DNA of 32,000 nucleotides from Methanopyrus kandleri AV19 (lineage in GTDB: Archaea; JAADCQ01; Methanopyri; Methanopyrales; Methanopyraceae). Positions 955 to 23,509 of this stretch are shown here, piece by piece. The translations under genes and the position numbers were made by a program. The stretch lies in assembly GCF_000007185.1 (NCBI RefSeq), contig NC_003551.1, positions 1,050,001 through 1,082,000 of the forward strand, read 5' to 3'. The notes beneath the pieces were generated by a model. That model did no database searches, was not told the origin of the DNA, and saw only the letters and a program-made list of their open reading frames with translations. How positions within the stretch are numbered: the first letter of the stretch is position 1; every line of letters starts with the position of its first letter.

Positions 955-2430
955 TCAGTCACCCCTGGCGTATTTACAGTACTCCCGGAAGTAGTCATGA
1001 CACATGCGCATTACATCGTACTGTTTGGCGCGTTTGGTGGCATGATGTGCCATCTCGAACATTAACTCGGGATCGTAGAGTAGGCGTACCAGGTGCCTGG
1101 CGGCTTCGTCCGCGTCCTCGGATCGGAAGGTGCGACCGAAGTTCCTGTCGACTATGTACGGCACTGCGCCGACCTCGGAGGCTACTACCGGGCATCCACA
1201 GCTCATCGCCTCGAGGAGTGCCATTGGCAGTCCTTCCGAGCGGCTCGGTAGGAGGAAGATGTGGAACCTACGAAGCCACTTGACTACCTCGTCTGGAGTG
1301 CAGGGACCGTGGAACCTCACGATGTCTTCCAGGCCGTACTCCTTCACGAGTTTCCGGCACTCCTCGTAGTACGCCTCGTCTTCCACTGGGCCTACCACGT
1401 GGAACACGACATTGCCTATGTGCTCGACGGTGCGGGCCGCGATCTCGATAAGTACGTCGATACCCTTGACGCGTTCGATCCTCGTGATCGTACCGACCTC
1501 GAGCACTTCCGGCTCGTTGTACTTCCTCTCCAGGTCGCCGGGAGAGTACTTCCAGGTCTCTATTCCCGAGTAAACGACTTTGATTTTATCCTCAGGAGCT
1601 CCCTGCTCCAGGGCCAGCTCCGCGTGGTAGTCCGAGATTTCTATTATCTCCTCGCACTGCTCGTACGACGTGAGCATCATCGAGCGGAAGCACTCCTTGA
1701 AAAGCTCGCGTGTCGTCCTCCCGTACCCCTCCAGTCGCGTGTCGAGCTCCCTAAGCAGTATCCCGTGCTCGGTGATGATAAAGGGGACATTCCGTACCGC
1801 CTTCGCGACCGAGCACAGGAACCCGCATACTCCCGAGTTCTGGGCGTGCGCGACGTCACAGTTCGGTAGTCGTCTAGCGCCGGCGGCCGCCCCTAGCACG
1901 AAGGATGCTATGTTCACGGCTACCCAGAACACGTCGCTGAACGGGTTATTCTCGCACTTGTCCTCGTACTGGGAGGCTAGGTAGTGAACGTATCGTGCGA
2001 GCTCGTACATCGTGGAGCTGGCGAGTACGCTCGTGGGCGACTTGGAAACCTTCCACAGCTCCTTCAGCATTGGCTCCGAAAGTGGTTCACCTTCCACCAT
2101 CCTCTCGAAGGTGGCCCGGAGCGTTTTCGCTGCGGTCGACCACCTGAGGCGGTGTGTGGGAGTTATCCTGTCGAGCCACCGGCGCAGTTTGTTCCCCTTC
2201 GGGACGATCTCCTGAATTACAACATCCCGGACGTTTGCCGGAATTTCCACGACTGGTTCGGTTCTTTCCGGCCCCGTCATGCATAACACGTTGAACACGA
2301 CATCCGGTGAATACTTGATGAGGCGCTGGACCCAGGTGGTGACCCCACCTAAAGCTACGGGATAGGTAGCCTCGGTTACTACGGTGACAGTGGGTCGTTT
2401 GTACATCCCGCTTCCCCGAAATTCCACCAT
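955..2430 (-). CDS. GT4-family glycosyltransferase with PelF-like (DUF3492-type) N-terminal domain
   Basis: 491-aa ORF. C-terminal GT-B/GT4 signature SEGLPMALLEAMSCGCPVVASEVGAVPYIV and ITEHGI motif. The N-terminus TVTVVTEATYPVALGGVTTWVQRLIKYSPDVVFNVL...IPANV matches my recollection of the PelF N-domain pattern (LLEGTYPyv.GGVSSWv.qLI..lP...F.vl...IPANV). The GT4 call is solid; the PelF subfamily is from memory. Confidence 0.85.
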   Translation of the reverse strand: MVEFRGSGMYKRPTVTVVTEATYPVALGGVTTWVQRLIKYSPDVVFNVLCMTGPERTEPVVEIPANVRDVVIQEIVPKGNKLRRWLDRITPTHRLRWSTAAKTLRATFERMVEGEPLSEPMLKELWKVSKSPTSVLASSTMYELARYVHYLASQYEDKCENNPFSDVFWVAVNIASFVLGAAAGARRLPNCDVAHAQNSGVCGFLCSVAKAVRNVPFIITEHGILLRELDTRLEGYGRTTRELFKECFRSMMLTSYEQCEEIIEISDYHAELALEQGAPEDKIKVVYSGIETWKYSPGDLERKYNEPEVLEVGTITRIERVKGIDVLIEIAARTVEHIGNVVFHVVGPVEDEAYYEECRKLVKEYGLEDIVRFHGPCTPDEVVKWLRRFHIFLLPSRSEGLPMALLEAMSCGCPVVASEVGAVPYIVDRNFGRTFRSEDADEAARHLVRLLYDPELMFEMAHHATKRAKQYDVMRMCHDYFREYCKYARGD

Positions 2431-4142: not shown

Positions 4143-5580
4143 CCAACACCTCCTTCATCTCGCGATCGATCTCCTCCAGGTCGCGTCGGGTCTTCTCGGC
4201 GGCCTCACGCGCCAGGTCGGGAGCCACGCCCAAGTACTTCTCGGGGTCCAACACCTCATCTAACTCTTCTTCTCCGAACAGCTCACGGACGCGCTCTTCC
4301 TCCTTAACTACTTCCGCGAAGTCACGTCCTTCCTCCCAAGCCCTCATCGCGAGCCGTCTCACGAGCTCGTGCGCCTCCTGTCGCCCTATTCCTCGCTTGA
4401 CCAGTTCGACCATCAGTGCCTCCGCCATATTAAGCCCCTTCGTCAGCCGCAGGTTCTCCCGTATGTTCTCCTCGTAAACGCGTAATCCCTCCAAGTTGTG
4501 GATCGTCAGCCGCAGCATTTCGTCCAGCAGCAGGAACTGTTCGGGGAGGATCACCCGCTCGCTCGCGGAGTTCGTGAGGTCCCGCTCGTGTTCGAGCGGC
4601 ACGTTCTCGAGCGCTATCTGCACGTTTGACCGCAGTACCCTCGCCAGGCTACACACCCGCTCGGAACGGATCGGATTCCGCTTGTGTGGCATCGTCGAGG
4701 ATCCGACCTGCTTCTCGGGGTCGAACGGTTCCTCGACCTCCCGGATCTCCGTCCGCTGGAGGTTCCTGATCTCGCGGCCGATCTTATCCAGCGTCGAGCC
4801 GATCAGCGCGAGCAGTGCGATCAACTCCGCGTAGCGGTCCCGCTGAATGACCTGGTTGGACACGGTCACCGGCCTGAGGTTCAGCAGTTCCATCACCCGA
4901 CGCTGCACCTCAGGACCCTTCTCGCCCAGCGCCGCCATCGTTCCGACGGCACCGGACAGCTGCCCCACCAGTACCCGGTTCGCGCACTCCCGGAGTCGCT
5001 TCAGGTGCCTCACGACCTCGCGTGCCCAGATCGCGAACTTCATACCGAGCGTCGTGGGAACCGCGTGCTGACCGTGCGTGCGACCCACCATCGGGAGGTC
5101 GGCGTACTCCTCGGCCTTCTCCGCCAGCACTTCCGCTAGACGGTGCAGCCTGCGGTAGATTATCGACAGTGCTTCCCGCAGTACCAACGCGTGCGCGGTG
5201 TCTATCACGTCGTTGCTGGTAGCGCCCAGGTGCACGTAGTCCCCGCCAACCTCGCACCGCTCCGATAGCGCCTTCACCAGGGCCATCACGTCGTGTTTGA
5301 TCTCCGCCTCGATCTCCTTGACGCGTTCCACGAACCGTCGTAGCTCTTCCTCGTCGCCGGTGATCTCCTCGACGACGCGTTCCACCTCGTCCGCGGCCTC
5401 CTCCGGTACGAAGTCGAACACCTCGGAGAGCGCCCGTACCAGGGCCGCCTCAACCTCGAGCATCTTCGCCACTTTGTTCTCTTCCGAGAACACCCGGCGG
5501 AGCTCGTCCGATCCGTACCGTGACTCGATCGGATGAACGGGCAACTCAGAGCCCCCTCCGGTCGGGACGGCTCTCCGCAT
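4126..5580 (-). CDS. purB: Adenylosuccinate lyase
   Basis: 484-aa ORF with the fumarate-lyase superfamily signature GSSTMPHKRNP. N-terminal HPIESRYGSDELRRVF is typical of PurB. The true start may be a few codons downstream of 5580. Confidence 0.9.
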   Translation of the reverse strand: MRRAVPTGGGSELPVHPIESRYGSDELRRVFSEENKVAKMLEVEAALVRALSEVFDFVPEEAADEVERVVEEITGDEEELRRFVERVKEIEAEIKHDVMALVKALSERCEVGGDYVHLGATSNDVIDTAHALVLREALSIIYRRLHRLAEVLAEKAEEYADLPMVGRTHGQHAVPTTLGMKFAIWAREVVRHLKRLRECANRVLVGQLSGAVGTMAALGEKGPEVQRRVMELLNLRPVTVSNQVIQRDRYAELIALLALIGSTLDKIGREIRNLQRTEIREVEEPFDPEKQVGSSTMPHKRNPIRSERVCSLARVLRSNVQIALENVPLEHERDLTNSASERVILPEQFLLLDEMLRLTIHNLEGLRVYEENIRENLRLTKGLNMAEALMVELVKRGIGRQEAHELVRRLAMRAWEEGRDFAEVVKEEERVRELFGEEELDEVLDPEKYLGVAPDLAREAAEKTRRDLEEIDREMKEVLGVGAG

Positions 5581-5633
5581 CCCTCGTGGTCGACGGCAAC
5601 CTACCCTTTCGTCATCGGGGGTAAGTTATCCCT

Positions 5634-13950: not shown

Positions 13951-14527
13951 CGACGATCCGGAGCTGGAACTCCTCCCTGACCGTGCCGTAAGGACCCTCG
14001 TAGCGGACTACCAGTCGGTACTTGCCCGATTCCTCCGGTGTGTAGAATTCGAACTCCACCCAATCGCCGACCCAAACCTCAGGCTCGCTCAGGTCGATAC
14101 GACCGAGCTCGGAGTTTCCGGCACCGTTCAGACGAAACTCTAGGGTACCCTCCCACAGAGGGCCGCCGCCGCGAAGAGTGAGTAAATAAGGCCGGACGAA
14201 CACTATCGCCGAGGAGCCGGCCGGGGCCGATACCGGGGCGAAGATCTCGAGCGTCAGCGCTACTCCGCGGACCCGGGAGATGACGACGGTCGGAACGTAC
14301 TTAAGACCCAATCGAGCCATCGACCTCTCCCACTCCAGCCGCGCGTCCTCCTCGGGATCGATGGGGGTCAATCCCCGGCCCCCTTCGACCCGTCCGGGCG
14401 ACGGCGCTGGCCCTTGGGCCCCGCCCTGTTTCTCCACGAAAAAGCCTTGCGGACGGTTAGGGTAACCACCGTCCGCTGTCTTCGGCGTACGGGGGCCGTA
14501 CGATGGATCGCACGGCGGTTCGCTCAC
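13943..14527 (-). CDS. Hypothetical protein with beta-rich C-terminal domain
   Basis: 194-aa ORF. The N-terminal 69 aa are low-complexity Gly/Pro-rich. An alternative start at ATG 14320 (MARLGLKYVPTVVISRV...) has a GAGAGGT SD-like motif. No family recognised. Confidence 0.5.
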   Translation of the reverse strand: MSEPPCDPSYGPRTPKTADGGYPNRPQGFFVEKQGGAQGPAPSPGRVEGGRGLTPIDPEEDARLEWERSMARLGLKYVPTVVISRVRGVALTLEIFAPVSAPAGSSAIVFVRPYLLTLRGGGPLWEGTLEFRLNGAGNSELGRIDLSEPEVWVGDWVEFEFYTPEESGKYRLVVRYEGPYGTVREEFQLRIVDD

Positions 14528-14770
14528 AGTAACGGTCGTGCCCGCACGACGTCGCGAGGGTTCGAGGAACCCGCTCGACCGACGGTGGACTCCAATCCGT
14601 GGTTACAAACCGTGTCGTTTCGGACTGTTTGTTTGATTCAGTGACGCGACACCGATGCAACGATGCCGCCGGAGTACTGAACACTCGTCCGCGTAGCTTC
14701 CGAGGCCATGGTAGGCACGGCGGGCGAGGTACGTGCGAGAGAATTCAGTACGTGCCGTGGATGTGGCCCA

Positions 14771-15700
14771 TCACAACCCCTCGACGAGGACGGCGAGTTG
14801 GCCTAAAAGCAGCGATCTGATCGCCTTCGGTACGAGAGCTTCCGTCATCCGCGCGGACTTCCTCATGGCGTCTTCTACGGTATCGCGGTCTACACTCCAG
14901 CCGTCCGAAGCCAGCCGTGTCCCGACTTCGAGTATCGAGATCCAGAAGGCCGCCGCGAGCTCCGATGGTCCGTTGCGCAGCGCGCTGCGTACCCGAAGCT
15001 GCTTCCAGTACCGCTTCACGGAGTCCATCCACCACTCCAGTGTTTCCCCCTGGGGTGCCTCCAGTCTAATGGCTCCTAACCCCTCTACGGCTCTCTCACC
15101 GAGCACCTCCGCTACGGCGGTGAGCACCGGATCGACCACGTACCTCCGACCGTCCACGATCAAGTCCAGATCGGAGAAGTCCGCGACGTCCTCCGGACGT
15201 ACCTCGGCGGCGCTCACGACTCGGAAATCGGTCGGGTGAAGTCCTGTGTCGATTCTCGGGATTGGGAGGGTCAGTCCCGTCACGTCTAGGTTGAGCGCCT
15301 CGGGTGCGTGCCTCTCGAACTCCTCGGGCGGACCGTGACGCGCGTCCCACGTGGCTATGAACATCAGCCCACGGTTCAAAGCGTCCCCGGCTCGGTCCAA
15401 GATGCGACGGGCGGCGTCCGGACCCGCGTCGTGGACGTCGTGGATCGATATCCCGGACTCCGGGTCGCCCACGCCCCGGTAGACCAGCAGGTCGTCGGAG
15501 AAAAACACGTGGGCACCCACGTTAACGTCACAGAGCAACTCAGTGGTAGCCACCATCAGGCAGCGACTGGAGCGGATGATTTCGCAGTTCTTCCCGCGGC
15601 AGCTCTCACAAGGTAGGTGCTCGACGAAGACCGGCGCGAAACCTCGGGCTGCGGCTAAAACCGCCACCATCGCGGCGTAGCTGAACTCCATATGCGGCAT
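14771..15700 (-). CDS. Hypothetical protein with N-terminal Cys cluster
   Basis: Track ORF runs 14771..15988, but the first 96 codons are an Arg/Pro/Gly-rich shadow. ATG 15700 (or 15691) follows a GGGGAGG SD, giving M(PHM)EFSYAAMVAVLAAARGF...LPCESCRGKNCEIIRSSRC... with acidic, genome-typical composition. No family recognised. Confidence 0.6.
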   Translation of the reverse strand: MPHMEFSYAAMVAVLAAARGFAPVFVEHLPCESCRGKNCEIIRSSRCLMVATTELLCDVNVGAHVFFSDDLLVYRGVGDPESGISIHDVHDAGPDAARRILDRAGDALNRGLMFIATWDARHGPPEEFERHAPEALNLDVTGLTLPIPRIDTGLHPTDFRVVSAAEVRPEDVADFSDLDLIVDGRRYVVDPVLTAVAEVLGERAVEGLGAIRLEAPQGETLEWWMDSVKRYWKQLRVRSALRNGPSELAAAFWISILEVGTRLASDGWSVDRDTVEDAMRKSARMTEALVPKAIRSLLLGQLAVLVEGL

Positions 15701-16238
15701 CCTCCCCTGACCGCACGGTGCGAGCCGGGGCTTCGACTGACCGTGGCTTGGGTAGATTTGTCCGAGCGTTCGGTAGCACGGTCCCCGTGCGTCGTGTTCC
15801 GCTCGACCGGGTCGGGATAGGGGGACCGTCTCCCTGGTTCCGAACCCTCGACGGCACCGAACGAGCCCGACGGACACTGCTAGGACGCGGGATGGGAAGT
15901 GTACCGGGGCGTCGGAGGTCGAAGCGGGAGTTGGTTCGTGGTCCCCGGCCGTAATCGGGTACGCGCGCCACTCGCCGCGCCTCGGCAATAAGGGACGTCG
16001 TCACCCGTCGGTAAGCCGGCCTGTCGTCATCGGAGCGTGCTTCCGTGGAAGTTACGGGACGACTCCGGAAGTTCGGCGACGCGCGCGGACGCGGTAATCG
16101 TCATCATTCCACGATTACGTCGGCACCCGATGACTTTTCGATGCGGGCGCGGCGCACGGGAGCCGGGCCGATTCACACGAAAGGTTTAGGCGGCGTGAGC
16201 CGTCCGGGCGGCCGTACCGTCGGTGAGACGGCCGTACA

Positions 16239-17360
16239 TCAGCCAATCATCCGCCGGAGTGTCTCAACCGATGACTCTACTTCCACCCCTCCACCGACCG
16301 GGAGTTCCACACCACCCAACGCCGAGGCCCGCTCGATGACCTCGTCCGCGTGTTCCACTCCGATGAGGTTCTGAATCCTCTTGATCCTCGAGTACAAGCT
16401 CTCCTGGGCGCCCTTCTCTTCCCACAGGGGGTCGTACTCCTTCGGCTCTATCTCGATCCATCCTACCCTCACCGTCGCTCCCGAGTTCAGGATGTTCTCC
16501 GCGAGCTCCGTCGGCTGTGACAGAAGCTGTATCAGCTCCGCGGCCCTCTCCACGGTGTCCACGAGTATGTCCGATATCCATCTTTCCACCCGCTCGTCCT
16601 CGATTTCCAGAGCTGCGATGGCCTCCTCCAGGTATCCGTTGAGGAGCTCCAGTTCCTCCACGGGACCGAGCTCGACGTTCTCCAGAGGCTCGGCCAGCTC
16701 TTCGAGTGGGGGAAGCCTGTTCGCGCACGTATGACAGAGGAGTGTGAAGATCGTCCAAACCCGGGCCGGTGATGCGAACTTCGGGACGATGTCTCCGTAT
16801 TGAATCTCCAGCGACGGGAGCGCCTCGACGATGCACTGGTCCGTGTCTACCGCCTTGGCCACGAGCTCGGCGGCCTTCCCGAGGTCCTCGTCCTCTAAGA
16901 ACCCTTCCGTACACGCCATGAGCGCGACTTCTACCAGCAACGGACCCGCTACGGTCTCTAGGCAGGGTTCTTCGAGGTACTTGGGTACCGCCGATAGGAA
17001 GGCACGACGTATCTCCAGTAGGTACCCGAGTGCGACGTCTGGTGTTTCGGTAACTTCTTCGAGGGCCACGCGAAGCTCGAACACACCGCTCAACGACCAT
17101 CGGGTGATTCGCTCCACGGCATCGACCAGTGTAGCAGGATCATCCAAAACCTCTTCCAAAAGGAACCGAACCGGATGAACGTGATGGATCTCCTCCCCTC
17201 GAAGTGCGCGGACGAGCGGTTTATCCGGGTCAAGCGTCGAAATCATCGCGCGCCGAAAGAGTTCGAAGTTCTCGAGCACCTCACAAGGTTCCGATACCGC
17301 GGCGTGTAACTTCTCCAGCACCGACGGTTTCGGACGGACCGGGACCTCCCACCACTTCAA
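16239..17360 (-). CDS. Acidic helical protein of unknown function, paralog A of a tandem pair
   Basis: 373 aa with a TTG start. Collinear with 18430..19566 over the full length through shared blocks LEKLH, PCE.L..FE.FRR, HP.RFLLE, VEVALMAC, RVW.IF.LLCHTCANR and EYDP.WE. A 24-nt identical DNA stretch occurs at 16912-16935 and 19121-19144. Confidence 0.8.
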   Translation of the reverse strand: MKWWEVPVRPKPSVLEKLHAAVSEPCEVLENFELFRRAMISTLDPDKPLVRALRGEEIHHVHPVRFLLEEVLDDPATLVDAVERITRWSLSGVFELRVALEEVTETPDVALGYLLEIRRAFLSAVPKYLEEPCLETVAGPLLVEVALMACTEGFLEDEDLGKAAELVAKAVDTDQCIVEALPSLEIQYGDIVPKFASPARVWTIFTLLCHTCANRLPPLEELAEPLENVELGPVEELELLNGYLEEAIAALEIEDERVERWISDILVDTVERAAELIQLLSQPTELAENILNSGATVRVGWIEIEPKEYDPLWEEKGAQESLYSRIKRIQNLIGVEHADEVIERASALGGVELPVGGGVEVESSVETLRRMIG

Positions 17361-17564
17361 CCGACACTCCCCGGTACTCCGGTCGACGTATTACAATGTT
17401 AAGTTTGCAGGAATGTTCAGTCAGGTGGTCGCAGTCTTAAGAGAGATATAGAGATATTATGTGTGGGGGCGCTGAGAGAGTGCGAACACTCGGCCGGCGA
17501 AGTCAGCTTCAGGGGGCGCCTCCTCATCCCTTCGGCGTCGGGGACGTTCTTCATCCGTGGAGAG

Positions 17565-17867
17565 TCACCTTAGACCGAGCAACCTCCCGAGTAGATTCAG
17601 TAGATTGGTCCCTTCCGGTAACCCAAGCTCTCGGGCGAGCTCCCAGAGAGCGGGTGAGACCTGAGCTCTCCTTCGGACTTCTCCCCACAAGCGCTCCACG
17701 GACCGGTGAAACGAGCTGGGGTCTCGGCGTAACCTCCGGGATAGCCCGTCGAAAATCCTTCGGGCCTCCCCTTGCAGTGCCGCCCACATGGTCTCGTAGG
17801 CGAGTTTGGGATCTCCGGGGATTTCGGCTATCCCATAGCGGTATCGGATAGACGGGCGGCCAGCCAA
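17565..17867 (-). CDS. Small Arg-rich helical hypothetical protein
   Basis: Track ORF 17565..17978 would overlap the upstream membrane gene by ~100 nt. A TTG at 17867 (AGGAG 10 nt upstream) or ATG at 17789 is the more likely start. C-terminal part: ...MWAALQGEARRIFDGLSRRLRRDPSSFHRSVERLWGEV...LLNLLGRLLGLR. Confidence 0.45.
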   Translation of the reverse strand: MAGRPSIRYRYGIAEIPGDPKLAYETMWAALQGEARRIFDGLSRRLRRDPSSFHRSVERLWGEVRRRAQVSPALWELARELGLPEGTNLLNLLGRLLGLR

Positions 17868-17880
17868 AGATACCCTGCTC

Positions 17881-18261
17881 CTACCCGAAACCCCGTTCTT
17901 CCGAGCTCTTCCACAGCTTCCGCGCCCCCTGAAGCAGCACCCGGGCTGCGGCCACGTCTCGCGGGTCAGGTCTTCCACACAGTCGCCGTCTGAAATCGTG
18001 GATTATCCTCCAGGCACCGTACACGGTCAGGGGGATGGTGACCGCGAAGAACACCAGACAAGCCGTGCTCCGAGCCTGTAGGGCTTCACTAAGACGTTCC
18101 CAGTGACCGGAAAAGAGCGCCCACGTGGCGGCCCCGACCGCGGTCAAGTTCACGACGGCTACCACCGTACCGGGACCCGCTCGCGGTCCCCATAGCAGCC
18201 GGAGCAGCGACCATAAGGCAAAAACCGCCAATAATCCCCCTAGGGCGATATGGAGGTACAC
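17881..18261 (-). CDS. Small membrane protein (3-4 predicted TM helices)
   Basis: 126 aa with a GTG start: YLHIALGGLLAVFALWSLLRLLW, VVAVVNLTAVGAATWALF, ACLVFFAVTIPLTVYGAWRII, then a basic C-terminal tail. Confidence 0.6.
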   Translation of the reverse strand: MYLHIALGGLLAVFALWSLLRLLWGPRAGPGTVVAVVNLTAVGAATWALFSGHWERLSEALQARSTACLVFFAVTIPLTVYGAWRIIHDFRRRLCGRPDPRDVAAARVLLQGARKLWKSSEERGFG

Positions 18262-18429
18262 CGGGTGGCCCCCACTACATCCAACGCTGTCGCGCCTATA
18301 TCGACGCTACGTCGCGCGGTGTAGGGGGGACACAGCCGGACTCCCACCCCCGTGGCGCGATACCGGTCACGACCTTCCCGTGGTGATCCGGACTCCCCGT
18401 TCGCCGTCATCTAGGTCGAGCGTGTGGAT

Positions 18430-19566
18430 TCACCTCATCCTCCTCTTCCTGAGCTCCTCGATAGAGTCATCGAGGAGGTCGTCAAGCGCGTCGTCGCCCA
18501 CCAACTCGCCCGCTTCTTCCATGTCCAGCTCGTACAACCGCTCGACCGCCCCGTTTGCTTCCTCCTCCACGAGCTCACGAACGCGCTCCACGACCGACTC
18601 GTGTACTTCCTCCTGTGGACCCGGCTCCCAAATGGGGTCGTATTCGCCCGGCTGTATTTCGACTTCGCCCAAACGGATCACGGCACCCGCTCCGGGTATC
18701 TTCACCGCCAGCTCCTCCCATCGGGAAAGGGTGTCCGCGAGCTCCAACGCGTGTTCCACGCTGTCCACCAGAATCGAGCCCACCCAGCGCAGAACCTCCT
18801 CGTCGTCGATCCCCAACCCACCTACCGCTTCATGGAGTGCTTCTCGCACCGAATACTCTATCTCATCTATCGGCCCCGGTCTGAGCTCCTTCAGCGGTTT
18901 CACCAGTTCTTCCGGCGGGACGGTACGGTTCGCGCACGTGTGACATAGCAGTGCGAAGATCACCCAAACCCGAGTCGGCGACGCGAACCTCGGAACTAAG
19001 CTCCCGTACCGTACCCCCAGTTCCGGAAGGAGCTCTAAAACCCGCTCGTCCACACCCACCCCGTCGGCCACGTACTCGGCGGCTTCCTTCAGATCCTCAC
19101 GTTCCAGGAGTCCTCCCGCGCACGCCATGAGCGCGACTTCTACCGATAGTGGCTCCAGCACGCTCTCCAGACCCGGGTCTTCCAGGTATTCCGGGGTTCT
19201 CCGTACGAAGAACCGCCGTAGCTGAAGGAAATGCAGGAGGACTATCTCCGCGGGATCGACGGTACCCCTCAGTCCCTCCCAGAGCCCGGATACGCCGCTT
19301 ATCGTCCAGTGTATCAGCCGCTCCGCGGCTTCCGCCAGCGTACTAGGGGTGTCCAAGACCTCGAGGAGAAATCGTATCGGATGTGTCTCCTCGATTCCCT
19401 CGCCCTTCAGCAGTCCCGCGAGACCTTCACAGGACTCGAGCGTCGAGAGTACCACCCGTCGGAAGATCTCGAAGTCCCCGAGGGTCTCGCAGGGCTTCGG
19501 CATCGCCACGTGCAGCTTCTCCAATGCGGATTCCTCCGGTTGGAGCGGATCGTTCCAATCCAACAC
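18430..19566 (-). CDS. Acidic helical protein of unknown function, paralog B of the tandem pair
   Basis: 378 aa with a GTG start. The N-terminus aligns position-for-position with paralog A (LDWNDPLQPEESALEKLHV vs KWWEVPVRPKPSVLEKLHA). It has the same four conserved Cys and a highly acidic C-terminal tail. Confidence 0.8.
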   Translation of the reverse strand: MLDWNDPLQPEESALEKLHVAMPKPCETLGDFEIFRRVVLSTLESCEGLAGLLKGEGIEETHPIRFLLEVLDTPSTLAEAAERLIHWTISGVSGLWEGLRGTVDPAEIVLLHFLQLRRFFVRRTPEYLEDPGLESVLEPLSVEVALMACAGGLLEREDLKEAAEYVADGVGVDERVLELLPELGVRYGSLVPRFASPTRVWVIFALLCHTCANRTVPPEELVKPLKELRPGPIDEIEYSVREALHEAVGGLGIDDEEVLRWVGSILVDSVEHALELADTLSRWEELAVKIPGAGAVIRLGEVEIQPGEYDPIWEPGPQEEVHESVVERVRELVEEEANGAVERLYELDMEEAGELVGDDALDDLLDDSIEELRKRRMR

Positions 19567-20067
19567 GGCTCCCCGTAGACTCGGGTGGTGCGTTCGGCTT
19601 ACAAAGCTTTGAAAGCCCCGCCTTCCGGACGGGGACGCGATCGCCGGAGATACCCGCTAGAACTCTCGAGTCCAGAGCGGCAAAGGTATCGGGTGGATCG
19701 GATTCGCTGCTAATCGGAAGCGGGGTACCGAGTGCCAATCGCTGATTAACGGCTACAGCATCGGGGTCTCAGGGACTACCCAGACTCAAAGCTGTTGAAA
19801 CCGATTGAAGGACTTGGGTTACGATCCCGGGTCCCCAGGATCCGGTTTGGGAGCGGGGTCGGAGACTGATTCGAAGCCGAACTCAGGAACTTCTGAACCT
19901 TTCCGTCGCCCCCGCGAGCCCTTAGCCTAGGCGAGGGAAGTTAACTTCCGGAAAGTATCATCACGCCGTGAGGGGATCACACCGGACCCGACACCGGTCG
20001 ATCCAGGGCCGATCGAACCCCGAAGGGGTTTAACCCTCTGGCGAATGGCGGGTGGGAGGGTTACCGC

Positions 20068-21114
20068 GTGCTCGAGACTATCCTTCTGGCCACCGTCGCC
20101 TGGACGGTTCAGGACCACGATCAACCTTTCGCCACATATTGGCAGGACGTGAAGTTTTGGGAGATCCTGGAGCGACACCCGCGCACGCTCGTCGTCGATC
20201 CCTACTGCGGTCCCGACGACCGACCTTGGACCAAGGACGAGATCCGCACCCTACGCGAGCACGGTGTGAAACCCGTAGCGTACCTATCACTTGCCACGGT
20301 CGGCAAGCACCAGACGGACCTGTACAGTCTCGCGGAGGAGAAGGGACTCCTCGGTCCGCGGGACCCGTACTGGGAAGGGGACCGTGCAGTTCGATTCTGG
20401 GAACGCACCTGGCTCGACGCCCTCCGCACCAAGTTCGAAGAATTACGGGACCTCGGCTACGAGGGTGTGTTCATCGACGTTGTGGACCCGTGGACTCTGG
20501 ACTGGTACGTTAAGTGGTTCCGTCGCGAAACCGGCGAGAACTTGGAGAAACTGCGTGAGTTAACTTACGATGCACTCGAGGAACTCATTCAGGCGGCACT
20601 ACACCTCGGCCTCGAAGTCTACGTGAACGTCGGGGGCGCGATCTTCGATCCAAAGCTCGCCGAGCTCAAGGAACGTTACGGGTTCAAGGTCGTCGTTGAG
20701 GACGTGATCACCGACGATGAGGGTAATCTCGTCCCGGACGACGTGTTCCGTGATTACCTGCGCGCCCTCGCACACCTAGGCTCGGGCGTGTACGTGATCG
20801 AGTACGACCTGACGATGACCCCCGAGGTGAACGAGCGGCTCGAAGAACTCTTCGCGGAGACGAAGGTGGAGGCGGTGTACGTGACCTCGCTCGACCACGA
20901 TCGACTCGGGATCGACATAGTTCCCATCAAGGCTCCGGTGAACCCGTCGGACACCTCGGGGAGCTCGGGGGAGGAGAAGGCATCGTACACGCGGGAGAAC
21001 GAGGAAGACTTGGAGAGAATCCCCGTGGAGGAGCTCGTGGAGGAAGGTCCGAAGAAACTGCCGGTGATCCCGATAGTTCCTCCGGTGCGTCGACGATGCC
21101 TATCGCATGGGTAA
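20068..21114 (+). CDS. GH114 / TM1410-like TIM-barrel protein (putative endo-alpha-1,4-polygalactosaminidase-family glycosidase)
   Basis: 348 aa with a GTG start behind a GGGTGGGAGGG SD. KPVAYLSLATVG...DPYWEGDRAVRFWERTW...LRDLGYEGVFIDVVDPW matches the remembered family pattern (AYlSiGe.e..R.Y...W.Gn..vryW...W...l...GfDGvfLD.vD.y). It has a short hydrophobic N-terminus (LETILLATVAW) and an acidic C-terminal tail. Confidence 0.65.
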   Translation: MLETILLATVAWTVQDHDQPFATYWQDVKFWEILERHPRTLVVDPYCGPDDRPWTKDEIRTLREHGVKPVAYLSLATVGKHQTDLYSLAEEKGLLGPRDPYWEGDRAVRFWERTWLDALRTKFEELRDLGYEGVFIDVVDPWTLDWYVKWFRRETGENLEKLRELTYDALEELIQAALHLGLEVYVNVGGAIFDPKLAELKERYGFKVVVEDVITDDEGNLVPDDVFRDYLRALAHLGSGVYVIEYDLTMTPEVNERLEELFAETKVEAVYVTSLDHDRLGIDIVPIKAPVNPSDTSGSSGEEKASYTRENEEDLERIPVEELVEEGPKKLPVIPIVPPVRRRCLSHG

Positions 21115-21240: not shown

Positions 21241-22530
21241 ATGGGATCGCCGGGGGCCCCGGTCCGTCGGCTCACCGGCTCGTTGTGTCTGGTGCTCGTG
21301 GAAGAGGCTACTACCGTACCCACGTTCCCCGGTGCGCTGTACGTTCTGGACCCACCCGGTGAACCGGGACGACTCCGTGAGGGTCCCGAGCTCACCGACG
21401 AAGAGGGAAGATCCGTCGTCCCGTTCGTGGCCCTCGTCGAGCCGCCGCTACGGGAAGTTATCCGGGTCGAGGGGACGACACTCCACGTACACCCGGACGC
21501 CGTCGTTCACGTGGACCCGGACCAACCGGTTGTACTGACAGGATACGCGTGCGACGATCGTCACACCGTCACCGCCGTTCTGCCGTTTCGCTCTTTCCTC
21601 GTAGCGCTGGATCACGCCCGTCACGGGCCACCTGATCCCTACGAACTTTTCGAGGTCTTTGCGATCCTGTATGACCCGATTCAGGCGGCCGCCTTCACCC
21701 TGAACGCCCGTGGACACGCGCTCCTGATCGACGAGCACGGAGTGAACGAACATGCCATGCTCTACACGACTCCGCCAGGTCACCCCGGGCCCGACCACAT
21801 CTCATCCCGGCACGTGCGGCCGAGTGACCTGCAGGGAGCCCCGAAGCACGTCACCGGCGACGGGCCGCCCATCCTTCCACGCGACCGCTACCTCGATCTG
21901 CTCGCCCGGACTCAGTTGATCACAGGTGTTCCGGAACCCGGACGCGCCGACTTCCGTCTACTCGAGAACGTGCACGAGTACGTTAGGCCCCTCCTTACCA
22001 CGATCCACCTCGCACACCATTGGGAAACGCGACAGGTTCACGAAGAAACCGGACGCCTCGTCGCCGAGATTCTCAGGGGAGACCTTCACAGAGAGGTCGC
22101 CGATGCTCACAAGCGGGCGGTGCGTGCCCTCGGATCCCGATACCCTACTCCGGCTTACGCCCCCGACGCTCGTGTTCGCTGGGCTCGTCAGCTCGCCGGG
22201 CCTGTCTCCGACCGCGTCCTCACGAAGGTACAGGATTTCGCCCGTCTCGTCGCCTGCCATCGTCTCGTCAACCGTCTTTGGACGTTCGTCGATACCGTAA
22301 CGCTGCTCGGATACGAGGAGTGCGTGGACCTCGTCGAGATGGCGTACAGCTACACCGAGCACGACCTTCCGGGACACGAGATCGAGAGGCTTCTCCGACC
22401 CTGGATCGACGCACTCCGGGATCCCCACTATCGACGTTTGGAGCGGGGGACCGCACCGCCACCTAAGTTGCGGCTCGTCGAACCCGAGGAGCCCGAGGAC
22501 TTGCTCGTGTGTTACGACCGTCTGCTGTGA
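21241..22530 (+). CDS. Hypothetical protein (His-rich, no recognised family)
   Basis: 429-aa ORF with genome-typical composition. The start is uncertain (ATG 21241, GTG 21292/21298). It lies 126 nt downstream of the GH114-like gene on the same strand. Confidence 0.6.
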   Translation: MGSPGAPVRRLTGSLCLVLVEEATTVPTFPGALYVLDPPGEPGRLREGPELTDEEGRSVVPFVALVEPPLREVIRVEGTTLHVHPDAVVHVDPDQPVVLTGYACDDRHTVTAVLPFRSFLVALDHARHGPPDPYELFEVFAILYDPIQAAAFTLNARGHALLIDEHGVNEHAMLYTTPPGHPGPDHISSRHVRPSDLQGAPKHVTGDGPPILPRDRYLDLLARTQLITGVPEPGRADFRLLENVHEYVRPLLTTIHLAHHWETRQVHEETGRLVAEILRGDLHREVADAHKRAVRALGSRYPTPAYAPDARVRWARQLAGPVSDRVLTKVQDFARLVACHRLVNRLWTFVDTVTLLGYEECVDLVEMAYSYTEHDLPGHEIERLLRPWIDALRDPHYRRLERGTAPPPKLRLVEPEEPEDLLVCYDRLL

Positions 22531-23200: not shown

Positions 23201-23509
23201 CCTGCGGAACGTCTGTTGGCTATCTGTAATGGGTGTTAGAAAATAGCAAGGGGAAGTGTGTGATCGTATGGTCGAATGTTTTCCCAACGGAGTGTAACAT
23301 CTGCTCACTACCCCATCAGGCTTTCATGGTGGGGCCGATTACCGTCGATTGGAGGATTCGGGGGAAGCTCGGCCCTGCCCAGTCCTGTCATCCCCGAGTG
23401 GGTCGACGTTACAACCCCTCCCCATCGCCGGCGGGTACGTATACTCGCGTTAGAGTTTAACCGATTCCGCCCATCGTTTCGTTCGTCGTAACGACAGGGG
23501 GAGGGTTCG

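What the first reader, a model, noticed from the sequence alone, without database searches (positions are those of the whole stretch)
16239..19566. Tandem divergent paralogs with four conserved cysteines bracketing a small membrane protein and a small helical protein: uncharacterised four-gene module
Genes 16239..17360 and 18430..19566 are full-length collinear paralogs, with about half the positions identical by eye. Islands of DNA identity include a 24-nt exact match (16912-16935 = 19121-19144, encoding VEVALMAC). Conserved residues include C in PCE, C in LMAC and the CHTC of LLCHTCANR, which suggests a metal or Fe-S site in an otherwise all-helical, very acidic scaffold. Between them lie a 126-aa 3-4-TM protein and a 75-100-aa Arg-rich helical protein. 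I recognise no known family, enzyme motif or defence or secretion signature. The module is flanked on both sides by the two longest noncoding stretches of the window. This is my best candidate for a genuinely undescribed system here, but its function is entirely open.
Basis: seen in the sequence. Interest (0 to 1): 0.65.

Follow-up and report, generated by a model that had tools for sequence, protein, structure and literature searches.

The report
Tandem orphan paralogs in Methanopyrus
Two neighbouring copies of a protein found only in Methanopyrus-type archaea are real, selected genes of unknown function, but the proposed four-gene module and four-cysteine metal site do not survive comparison with related genomes.

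Summary
The window is Methanopyrus kandleri AV19, genome positions about 1,050,001-1,082,000. The two paralogs are real: 49% identical (E 2e-106), in tandem in all six Methanopyrus genomes where both are visible, each under purifying selection (dN/dS 0.15-0.24).

They belong to an orphan family seen only in class Methanopyri. A third AV19 member is annotated "MK-7 family". No Pfam, NCBIfam, PADLOC, PHROG or PDB match exists. A confident AlphaFold model (pLDDT 84, pTM 0.81) has no Foldseek match in PDB or BFVD.

- None of the four cysteines is conserved family-wide, and two vary within the genus. The invariant residues are H210, R215 and P306-x-E-Y-D-x-x-W313.
- The two small ORFs are intact only in M. 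kandleri itself. The second is truncated in this window by a 175-bp deletion. Both are frameshifted in three other species and absent in a fourth.
- The spacers carry two published C/D box sRNA genes, sRNA 85 and sRNA 84.

The only functional lead is genomic context. A GH114/GH191-like gene is a conserved divergent neighbour. In a sister lineage the two paralogs sit beside cofG and cofH. Function remains inferred.

The parts
16239..17360 (-). Paralog A, 373 aa, TTG start. Soluble, acidic, all-alpha protein of the MK-7-type family.
   Evidence: ORF. 49% identical to B. Orthologs at 80-95% identity in six other Methanopyrus assemblies. dN/dS 0.15-0.24. AlphaFold model pLDDT 84, pTM 0.81.
18430..19563 (-). 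Paralog B, 377 aa from the conserved TTG start.
   Evidence: ORF. P0007 is 100% identical, 377 aa, on a 1,694,969-bp contig. Start-codon alignment. dN/dS 0.22-0.23.
17361..17430 (-). A's own upstream region: AAACTTAAC box and GTACCGGGGAG Shine-Dalgarno-like element. I infer this is A's own promoter and ribosome-binding site.
   Evidence: The last ~70 columns before A's start are conserved in all five aligned genomes. This includes L003, where it is nearly all that separates B from A. Sequence. The promoter role is inferred, not shown.
17504..17563 (-). C/D box sRNA 85, a published, RNA-seq-detected methylation guide RNA. It directly abuts the stop codon of the second small ORF.
   Evidence: Exact 60-nt match to 'C/D box sRNA 85', genome position 1067504, negative strand (PMC3695527, supplementary file 3). 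Weak Rfam sR47 hit. Divergence K = 0.06-0.10 against 0.2-0.4 in the flanks. Deleted in L003 and L011.
17565..17843 (-). C-terminal 93 codons of a small Arg-rich helical ORF. It is 174 aa and intact in the closest relative (L015). Here it is truncated and frameshifted by a 175-bp deletion at the 17843/17844 junction.
   Evidence: Frameshifts and stops in KOL6, L002 and L011. Absent in L003.
17881..18261 (-). 126-aa ORF with three hydrophobic segments. Intact only in AV19 and one ~95%-identical strain. A TATA-like GATATAGG lies ~37 nt upstream (18291-18305).
   Evidence: 6 synonymous against 6 non-synonymous differences. Frameshifting indels and dN/dS 0.6-0.7 against KOL6 and L002. No intact frame in L011. 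Absent in L003. Upstream sequence; its conservation.
15979..16036 (-). C/D box sRNA 84, published. It lies ~200 nt downstream of A on the same strand.
   Evidence: Exact 58-nt match to 'C/D box sRNA 84'. Conserved in all six Methanopyrus loci aligned, with a canonical AUGAUGA C box in L003. Weak Rfam sR14 hit.
14771..15988 (-). 405-aa ORF intact only in this strain. Probably a decaying or strain-specific gene, not part of a conserved unit.
   Evidence: Frameshifted in the 94%-identical L004, fragmentary in KOL6 and L002, no match in L003 or L011. No Pfam, NCBIfam, PADLOC or PHROG hit.
19567..20067 (.). Divergent intergenic region between B and the GH114-like gene. Its centre is variable. It holds the palindrome GGCTTTCAAAGCTTTGTAAGCC (19596-19617), 30-50 nt upstream of B.
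   Evidence: (I16). The palindrome is conserved in 4 of 5 genomes; L003 has a different palindrome at the same place.
20068..21114 (+). GH114/GH191-like TIM-barrel gene (MJ1477/TM1410-type). It is the only neighbour of this paralog clade that is conserved across deep Methanopyri lineages.
   Evidence: Pfam PF03537 39.8 bits, cut-off 27. TIGR01370 36.6 bits, below cut-off. 41% identical (E 5e-88) to the gene in the operon divergent from P0013 in L012.

Best explanation
The locus is a tandem duplication of a gene from an orphan family seen only in the archaeal class Methanopyri. The AV19 annotation calls a third member of this family 'MK-7'.

Shown:
- Both copies are kept by purifying selection in every Methanopyrus genome examined. 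Short tracts are occasionally homogenised by gene conversion.
- The DNA between and downstream of the copies is lineage-variable spacer, not a conserved module. It carries two expressed C/D box sRNA genes (85 and 84). It also carries ORFs that are intact only in M. kandleri itself and are decaying or absent elsewhere.
- The proteins are all-alpha, with 17 helices in the ordered part, one beta-hairpin and a low-confidence acidic tail. The fold is confidently predicted and has no PDB or BFVD match.
- The family-wide conserved residues are E144 (nearly invariant), H210, R215 and the C-terminal P306-x-E-Y-D-x-x-W313 motif, plus an N-terminal W-x-x-x-P-x-x-P peptide. The four cysteines are not conserved.

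Inferred:
- Each copy has its own promoter and Shine-Dalgarno-like element.
- From the sequence (no long hydrophobic segment or signal-like N-terminus) I read the proteins as soluble and cytoplasmic; no predictor was run.
- The proteins use this polar constellation to bind a ligand or partner, or to catalyse a reaction, without a Cys-ligated metal.
- The A/B clade works with the neighbouring GH114/GH191-like TIM-barrel gene. In the sister lineage that gene lies in one operon with cofG.

My confidence in the anatomy and evolution is about 0.85. My confidence in the functional coupling is about 0.25.
For: Paralogy. Tandem arrangement in the window, L001, L002, L003, L011 and L015. dN/dS 0.15-0.24, similar to the neighbouring genes. 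Conserved upstream box in all genomes. Conversion tracts of 35-68 identical nt at codons 193-215 in KOL6, L002 and L011.

Family limits: only six real clusters among 1.84 billion representatives, and every one that carries a source name is Methanopyrus or Methanopyri (P0015 carries none). Conserved sites. Structure. No fold match.

Spacer decay. sRNAs.

Context: the GH114-like gene is 41% identical between lineages while all other synteny is lost. cofG is confirmed at 494 bits and cofH at 527 bits.
Against: - No experiment or homology ties the proteins to any activity.
- I could not inspect the model's coordinates, so clustering of the conserved residues into one site is unverified.
- The other subfamilies have unrelated neighbours: P0014 beside unknown genes and CobN, P0015 and P0035 beside Translin and RsmB.
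- In the sister lineage cofG lies between P0013 and the GH114-like gene.
- Divergent or convergent adjacency does not prove co-function.
- Within M. kandleri itself both small ORFs are intact in one strain. The 6:6 synonymous to non-synonymous count in the membrane ORF cannot exclude a species-specific function.
Confidence: 0.65

Rival explanations
1. F0-synthase accessory proteins. Members of the A/B/P0012/P0013 clade each bind one radical-SAM half of 7,8-didemethyl-8-hydroxy-5-deazariboflavin (F0) synthase. They would hold CofG and CofH together, or protect the labile CofH product, at about 100 C. This would be a non-covalent counterpart of the fused CofGH (FbiC) enzyme.
For: In the sister Methanopyri lineage, P0013 is divergent (134 bp) from an operon that starts with cofG (TIGR03550, 494 bits, cut-off 213). 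P0012 overlaps the 3' end of cofH by 10 nt (TIGR03551, 527 bits, cut-off 374). The tree suggests P0012 and P0013 arose by duplication within that lineage (90% bootstrap). The two adjacencies would then be independent. My rough post-hoc chance estimate is 1e-3 to 1e-2.
Against: Seen in one lineage only. No cofG or cofH, and no remnant of either, lies within 16 kb of A and B in this window or in any other Methanopyrus locus held for the A/B region (L001-L003, L011). One adjacency is convergent, so the genes are not co-transcribed. All other methanogens make F420 without this family. No interaction data exist.
Confidence: 0.12
2. This is a four-gene module (large, small membrane, small helical, large) whose large subunits carry a Cys4 metal or Fe-S centre.
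For: All four Cys are present in both window paralogs, and C150 and C212 are invariant within the genus. Both small ORFs are intact in one close relative, L015. A TATA-like box upstream of the membrane ORF is conserved in KOL6 and L002.
Against: C26 is Tyr in one ortholog. C209 is Ser in both copies of one genome. P0012 and P0013 have none of the four. The small ORFs are absent in L003, frameshifted in KOL6, L002 and L011, and truncated in this window. No other family member has such neighbours.
Confidence: 0.04
3. Non-catalytic structural or adaptor protein. The conserved residues only stabilise a lineage-specific helical scaffold or a protein-protein interface, with no small-molecule site.
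For: Four of the eight invariant positions are prolines and one is tryptophan. The protein is all-alpha with no cofactor motif. It has a low-confidence acidic tail.
Against: Invariant His, Arg, Tyr and Asp and a nearly invariant Glu across subfamilies only 24-30% identical are more typical of a binding or catalytic site.
Confidence: 0.15
4. Remnant of a mobile element or a defence island. The variable flanks and lineage-specific ORFs would mark an integrated element that the paralogs belong to.
For: The flanks are strongly strain-variable. The family has no relatives outside one class.
Against: No PADLOC or PHROG hit below E = 0.09 for the paralogs, small ORFs or flanking ORFs. No BFVD fold match. 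No integrase, tRNA gene or terminal repeats. The pair is syntenic in all Methanopyrus genomes, between the same GH114-like and hydantoinase-like genes. Base composition is not atypical.
Confidence: 0.03

Closest known systems
'MK-7 family' of the M. kandleri AV19 genome annotation (e.g. AAM02394.1 / WP_011019549.1, 299 aa)
   Same: Detectable homology: the profile of A and B hits the cluster holding AAM02394.1 at E 1.4e-10. The N-terminal M-x-W-x-E-V-P-V-x-P peptide, H-x4-R and P-x-E/D-Y-D-P-x-W motifs are shared. It has the same restricted taxonomic range.
   Different: Only 25-30% identical, 75 residues shorter and single-copy in an unrelated neighbourhood. The label is a catalogue name only; no function, structure or experiment is attached to it.
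TenA / heme-oxygenase-like all-alpha proteins (top but non-significant Foldseek hits)
   Same: All-helical proteins. Several TenA entries recur among the best hits for both models.
   Different: E >= 0.27, probability <= 0.11, TM-score <= 0.19 and rmsd ~20 A. That is no real structural similarity. There is no sequence similarity either.
Archaeal C/D box sRNA genes (for the elements in the spacers)
   Same: Exact identity to published M. kandleri sRNA 84 and sRNA 85, with C, D', C' and D boxes and ~12-nt guides.
   Different: These are neighbours of the paralogs. Nothing shows they are functionally tied to them. sRNA 85 is missing in two Methanopyrus species.
Fused CofGH (FbiC) F0 synthase. This is an analogy for the novel reading only.
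   Same: It would achieve physical coupling of the CofG and CofH activities. NCBIfam holds a model for the bifunctional CofGH enzyme, and both neighbouring genes match it.
   Different: No homology to CofG or CofH. The link rests on gene adjacency in one lineage. It was not tested.

Membership tests
MK-7-type orphan family (Methanopyri) | Significant sequence similarity to an annotated MK-7 member | tested here: met
   The profile of A and B orthologs hits P0014 at E 1.4e-10. P0014's cluster contains AAM02394.1, 'MK-7 family'. BLASTP of A against the P0014 locus gives E 4e-9.
MK-7-type orphan family (Methanopyri) | Shared motifs: the N-terminal W-x-x-x-P-x-x-P peptide, H210-x4-R215 and P-x-[ED]-Y-D-x-x-W | tested here: met
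   H210, R215, P306, Y309, D310 and W313 are invariant in 21 sequences from seven subfamilies. B's N-terminal peptide is diverged but keeps P7 and P10; W4 survives only in the window's copy and is Arg in four of the five other B orthologs (the fifth, P0008, lacks that end).
Cys-ligated metal / Fe-S proteins | Invariant set of Cys (or Cys/His) ligands across homologs | tested here: not met
   C26 is Y, R, F or a gap. C150 is A, V, L or a gap. C209 is S or A. C212 is V or T in various members. P0012 and P0013 have none of the four. No Fe-S or zinc Pfam model matches.
Cys-ligated metal / Fe-S proteins | Bound metal in purified protein | not testable with these tools
   Needs ICP-MS and UV-vis spectroscopy on recombinant protein.
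Conserved multi-gene module or operon | Same gene set and order in related genomes, with intact reading frames | tested here: not met
   The small ORFs are absent in L003, frameshifted in KOL6, L002 and L011, and truncated in the window. They are not found next to the distant members.
TenA / heme-oxygenase-like fold | Significant structural superposition | tested here: not met
   Best Foldseek E 0.27, TM <= 0.19.
Known anti-phage defence systems (PADLOC) and phage protein families (PHROGs) | Match to a defence or phage protein model | tested here: not met
   No hits for A, B, P0012, P0013, P0027 or P0015. Only chance-level hits (E 0.04-0.09) for two neighbouring ORFs.
Archaeal C/D box sRNA (elements at 17504-17563 and 15979-16036) | C/D/C'/D' boxes with ~12-nt guides, and detection as a stable small RNA | tested here: met
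   Boxes are readable in the sequence. Exact matches to RNA-seq-detected sRNA 85 and sRNA 84 (listed values 600 and 400, which I take to be read counts) in PMC3695527, supplementary file 3. Rfam scores are below gathering (19.8 and 18.1 bits).
GH114/GH191 glycoside hydrolases (neighbour gene 20068-21114) | Family HMM above the curated threshold; catalytic Asp/Glu pair | tested here: inconclusive
   Pfam PF03537 39.8 bits, above the 27-bit cut-off. TIGR01370 only 36.6 bits against a 181-bit cut-off. Catalytic residues were not checked. The GH191 description is from PMC12054363.

The most novel reading that the evidence does not exclude
The MK-7-type proteins define a new all-alpha fold. The A/B/P0012/P0013 clade are dedicated partner proteins of the two radical-SAM halves of F0 synthase, one paralog per subunit. 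They would be a hyperthermophile-specific, non-covalent way of coupling CofH to CofG, possibly together with the co-operonic GH114/GH191-like TIM-barrel protein.
Probability: 0.1. Interest if true: 0.65.

Novelty: already known. Interest (0 to 1): 0.3.

Why it matters
As it stands this is mostly a clean-up result.
- An apparent four-gene "system" resolves into two duplicated orphan genes, two already published guide-RNA genes and decaying strain-specific ORFs.
- The cysteine-metal idea is excluded by comparative data.

What remains of interest is modest:
- A family restricted to the class Methanopyri has a confidently predicted fold with no match in PDB or BFVD, and a defined set of invariant polar residues.
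- Its only non-random genomic associations are with a GH114/GH191-like gene and, in a sister lineage, with both halves of F0 synthase.

If the F0-synthase link were real, it would point to an unrecognised accessory factor for F420 cofactor biosynthesis near the upper temperature limit of life. That is a lead, not a finding.

Tried and rejected
- **Decayed third paralog.** The ~1.1-1.25 kb between A and B is about the length of one gene, so I tested whether it is a decayed third copy. hmmsearch of the family profile with filters off against all six frames of four genomes gave nothing (best E = 1).
- **Internal repeats.** hhalign self-comparison found none.
- **Hidden homology to neighbours.** hhalign of the family profile against the 429-aa protein, the 405-aa ORF and the 394-aa gene beside P0014 gave probabilities <= 0.3%.
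- **Family libraries.** Pfam on all 21 members, NCBIfam, PADLOC, PHROGs and PDB sequence profiles gave only chance-level hits.
- **Fold searches.** Foldseek with the first, poor model (pLDDT 64) and the second, good model (pLDDT 84) against PDB, and with the good model against BFVD, gave no hit with E < 0.1.
- **Collection scans.** Two scans of genome contigs (small-ORF protein, A/B alignment) and one of metagenome contigs (P0013) returned nothing, so Methanopyrus seems unreachable there.
- **cofG/cofH remnants.** tblastn of cofG, cofH and the other sister-lineage neighbours against the Methanopyrus loci found none.
- **Literature.** The 2002 genome paper that defined the MK families is not held. 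The SNP6/KOL6 comparative paper does not mention this locus.
- **Rfam.** At gathering threshold it finds none of the four published sRNAs in the window.


Full report
**Source and observation**

The window is Methanopyrus kandleri AV19. Paralog B is 100% identical to a protein on a 1,694,969-bp contig. Four published AV19 C/D box sRNAs map exactly in the window at a constant offset, so the window is genome 1,050,001-1,082,000.

ORFs 16239..17360(-) (A, 373 aa) and 18430..19566(-) (B) exist. They are collinear paralogs: 49% identity over 342 residues, E 2e-106. The 24-nt exact match is real and is the longest shared word. Both carry the four named cysteines. A 126-aa hydrophobic ORF and an Arg-rich ORF lie between them.

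Three corrections apply:
- B's conserved start is TTG 19563.
- pI 4.4 is not unusual here, since neighbours have pI 4.65-5.9.
- The flanks contain RNA genes and a strain-specific ORF (below).

**The paralogs are real, selected genes**

Orthologs of A and B occur in tandem in every Methanopyrus assembly where both sides are visible. These are KOL6 (L001), three MAG species (L002, L003, L011) and a close M. kandleri relative (L015).

Pairwise dN/dS is 0.15-0.24 for A and 0.22-0.23 for B. That is similar to the neighbouring GH114-like gene and the 429-aa gene.

The ~70 nt upstream of A hold an AAACTTAAC box and a GTACCGGGGAG element. They are conserved in all genomes, including L003, where they are almost the whole 157-bp spacer. 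B has a similar ACGGGGAG element and a palindrome over its presumed promoter. I infer that each copy is its own transcription unit.

Identical runs of 35, 61 and 68 nt between A and B lie at codons 193-215 in KOL6, L002 and L011. About half of identical residues share a codon, so these runs indicate short gene-conversion tracts. The window's own 24-nt run is only weakly beyond chance.

**The cysteines**

Within the genus, C150 and C212 are invariant. C26 is Tyr in P0003. C209 is Ser in both copies of the L011 genome.

A filter-free HMMER search of 1.84 billion representatives found four more clusters. In these, C26 and C150 are never Cys, and P0012 and P0013 have none of the four.

The invariant positions across 21 sequences are P63, P193, H210, R215, P306, Y309, D310 and W313. 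E144, W202 and S197 are nearly invariant. A Cys4 or Fe-S site is therefore not a property of the family.

**The 'small genes' and the 'noncoding' flanks**

| Genome | State of the region between B and A |
|---|---|
| L003 | 157-bp spacer; window 17378-18438 has no counterpart |
| KOL6, L002 | Both small ORFs hit in two or three frames; frameshifting indels in both, stops in KOL6 |
| L011 | No intact frame for the membrane ORF; truncated second ORF; 300-bp deletion |
| L015 (~95% identical) | Both ORFs intact, 126 and 174 aa |
| This window (AV19) | 175-bp deletion at 17843/17844 shifts the frame and leaves only the last 93 codons of the second ORF |

In KOL6 and L002, dN/dS is 0.6-0.7 for the membrane ORF and 0.33-0.58 for the second ORF.

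The membrane ORF differs between the two M. kandleri strains by 6 synonymous and 6 non-synonymous codons. That count is uninformative. The middle region is not a decayed third paralog.

Directly after the second ORF's stop lies C/D box sRNA 85 (17504-17563, -). About 200 nt downstream of A lies sRNA 84 (15979-16036, -). Both are exact matches to RNA-seq-detected sRNAs of Su, Tripp and Randau 2013 (PMC3695527, supplementary file 3).

sRNA 84 is conserved in all six loci. sRNA 85 is much better conserved than its surroundings, with K 0.06-0.10 against 0.2-0.4. It is nevertheless lost in L003 and L011.

The 405-aa ORF downstream of A is intact only in AV19.

**Family, structure, and what it is not**

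Of the six real clusters, every one that carries a source name is Methanopyrus or 'Methanopyri archaeon' MAGs. The seventh hit is a repetitive fish protein at E 1e-4, which I take as spurious. One cluster contains AAM02394.1, annotated 'Uncharacterized protein specific for M.kandleri, MK-7 family'.

No Pfam, NCBIfam, PADLOC, PHROG or PDB-sequence match exists. There is no internal repeat.

With 12 close sequences AlphaFold gave pLDDT 64. With 21 sequences including the distant subfamilies it gave pLDDT 84 and pTM 0.81, and all five models scored 81.7-84. The model has 17 helices in its ordered part (residues 1-310). A beta-hairpin at 297-304 precedes the EYDPLW motif. The acidic C-terminal region scores low (pLDDT about 62 falling to 35).

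Foldseek found nothing in PDB (best E 0.27, TM <= 0.24) or BFVD (best E 0.12). AlphaFold DB was not available.

**Context**

An NJ tree puts A and B together (98.5% bootstrap) and P0012 and P0013 together (90.5%). So the duplications were independent, or conversion has homogenised the copies.

- B is divergent from a GH114/GH191-like gene in all Methanopyrus genomes.
- In the sister lineage, P0013 is divergent from an operon of cofG, a GH114-like gene, a 146-aa gene and a 323-aa gene. Its GH114-like protein is 41% identical to the window's (E 5e-88). No other synteny survives.
- P0012 overlaps the 3' end of cofH.
- cofG and cofH are the two halves of F0 synthase.
- The other subfamilies sit beside unknown genes and CobN (P0014), or beside Translin and RsmB (P0015 and P0035, conserved in two lineages).
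- No cofG or cofH, or remnant of either, lies near A and B in Methanopyrus.

**Mechanism**

Shown: tandem, independently maintained paralogs of an orphan all-alpha family; no conserved Cys site; no conserved module.

Inferred:
- A polar E/H/R plus Y-D-W constellation forms a ligand, partner or catalytic site (about 0.5).
- The A/B clade acts with the GH114/GH191-like gene product or its operon (about 0.25).
- As the boldest reading, the clade partners CofG and CofH (about 0.1).

**Verdict**

The family was already catalogued as MK-7 and the spacer RNAs are published.

The result is an ordinary lineage-specific orphan duplication with a possibly new fold and one context lead. Interest is 0.3.

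Noticed in passing
window 5548-5620(-), 15979-16036(-), 17504-17563(-), 23361-23432(-): Four published M. kandleri C/D box sRNAs (83, 84, 85, 86) map exactly in the window, all on the minus strand. Rfam at gathering threshold detects none of them. Only 84 and 85 appear, as sub-threshold sR14 and sR47 hits, in the permissive scan, which covered 14400-20200 only.
   Followed up: yes
window 14771-15988(-): The 405-aa ORF has gene-like codon-position GC but is intact only in AV19. It is frameshifted in a 94%-identical strain, fragmentary in two species and absent in two. It is probably a decaying or very young gene.
   Followed up: partly
L002 and L011 (A/B codons 193-215); KOL6 likewise: Runs of 35-68 identical nucleotides between the tandem paralogs indicate short gene-conversion tracts over the region that holds the invariant P193, H210 and R215. 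In L011 both copies carry C209S, consistent with conversion.
   Followed up: partly
window 19596-19617: Palindrome GGCTTTCAAAGCTTTGTAAGCC lies 30-50 nt upstream of B and is conserved in 4 of 5 genomes. L003 has a different palindrome (GGTTCCCGGAACC) at the same position. It could be an operator or promoter element.
   Followed up: no
L012 5840-7866(-) and L007 8996-10093(-): In a sister Methanopyri lineage, cofG is co-operonic with a GH114/GH191-like TIM-barrel gene (4-nt overlap). The two MK-7-like paralogs flank cofG and cofH respectively.
   Followed up: partly
L005 7301-7924(-) and L014 683-1306(-): The P0015/P0035 subfamily is divergently paired with a Translin-family gene, followed by RsmB, DUF1152 and QRPTase, in two different lineages. 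A homolog (62% identity) of the 323-aa protein from the cofG operon lies 3.3 kb away in L005.
   Followed up: no
window 955-2430(-) and 20068-21114(+): A PelF-like glycosyltransferase (DUF3492 + GT1) and a GH114/GH191-like putative galactosaminidase lie in the same 32-kb window. This hints at a Pel- or galactosaminogalactan-like exopolysaccharide capacity in Methanopyrus.
   Followed up: no
window 18291-18305: A TATA-like GTCGATATAGGCGCG lies ~37 nt upstream of the 126-aa ORF. It is conserved in KOL6 and L002 even though the ORFs there are broken. The transcript may be retained to deliver sRNA 85.
   Followed up: no
window 21241-22530(+): The 429-aa protein downstream of the GH114-like gene is conserved in the genus (dN/dS ~0.15) but has no family match. 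It contains a short 'ACHRLVNR' string resembling the paralogs' 'CHTCANR', which is not significant (hhalign E 0.62).
   Followed up: partly
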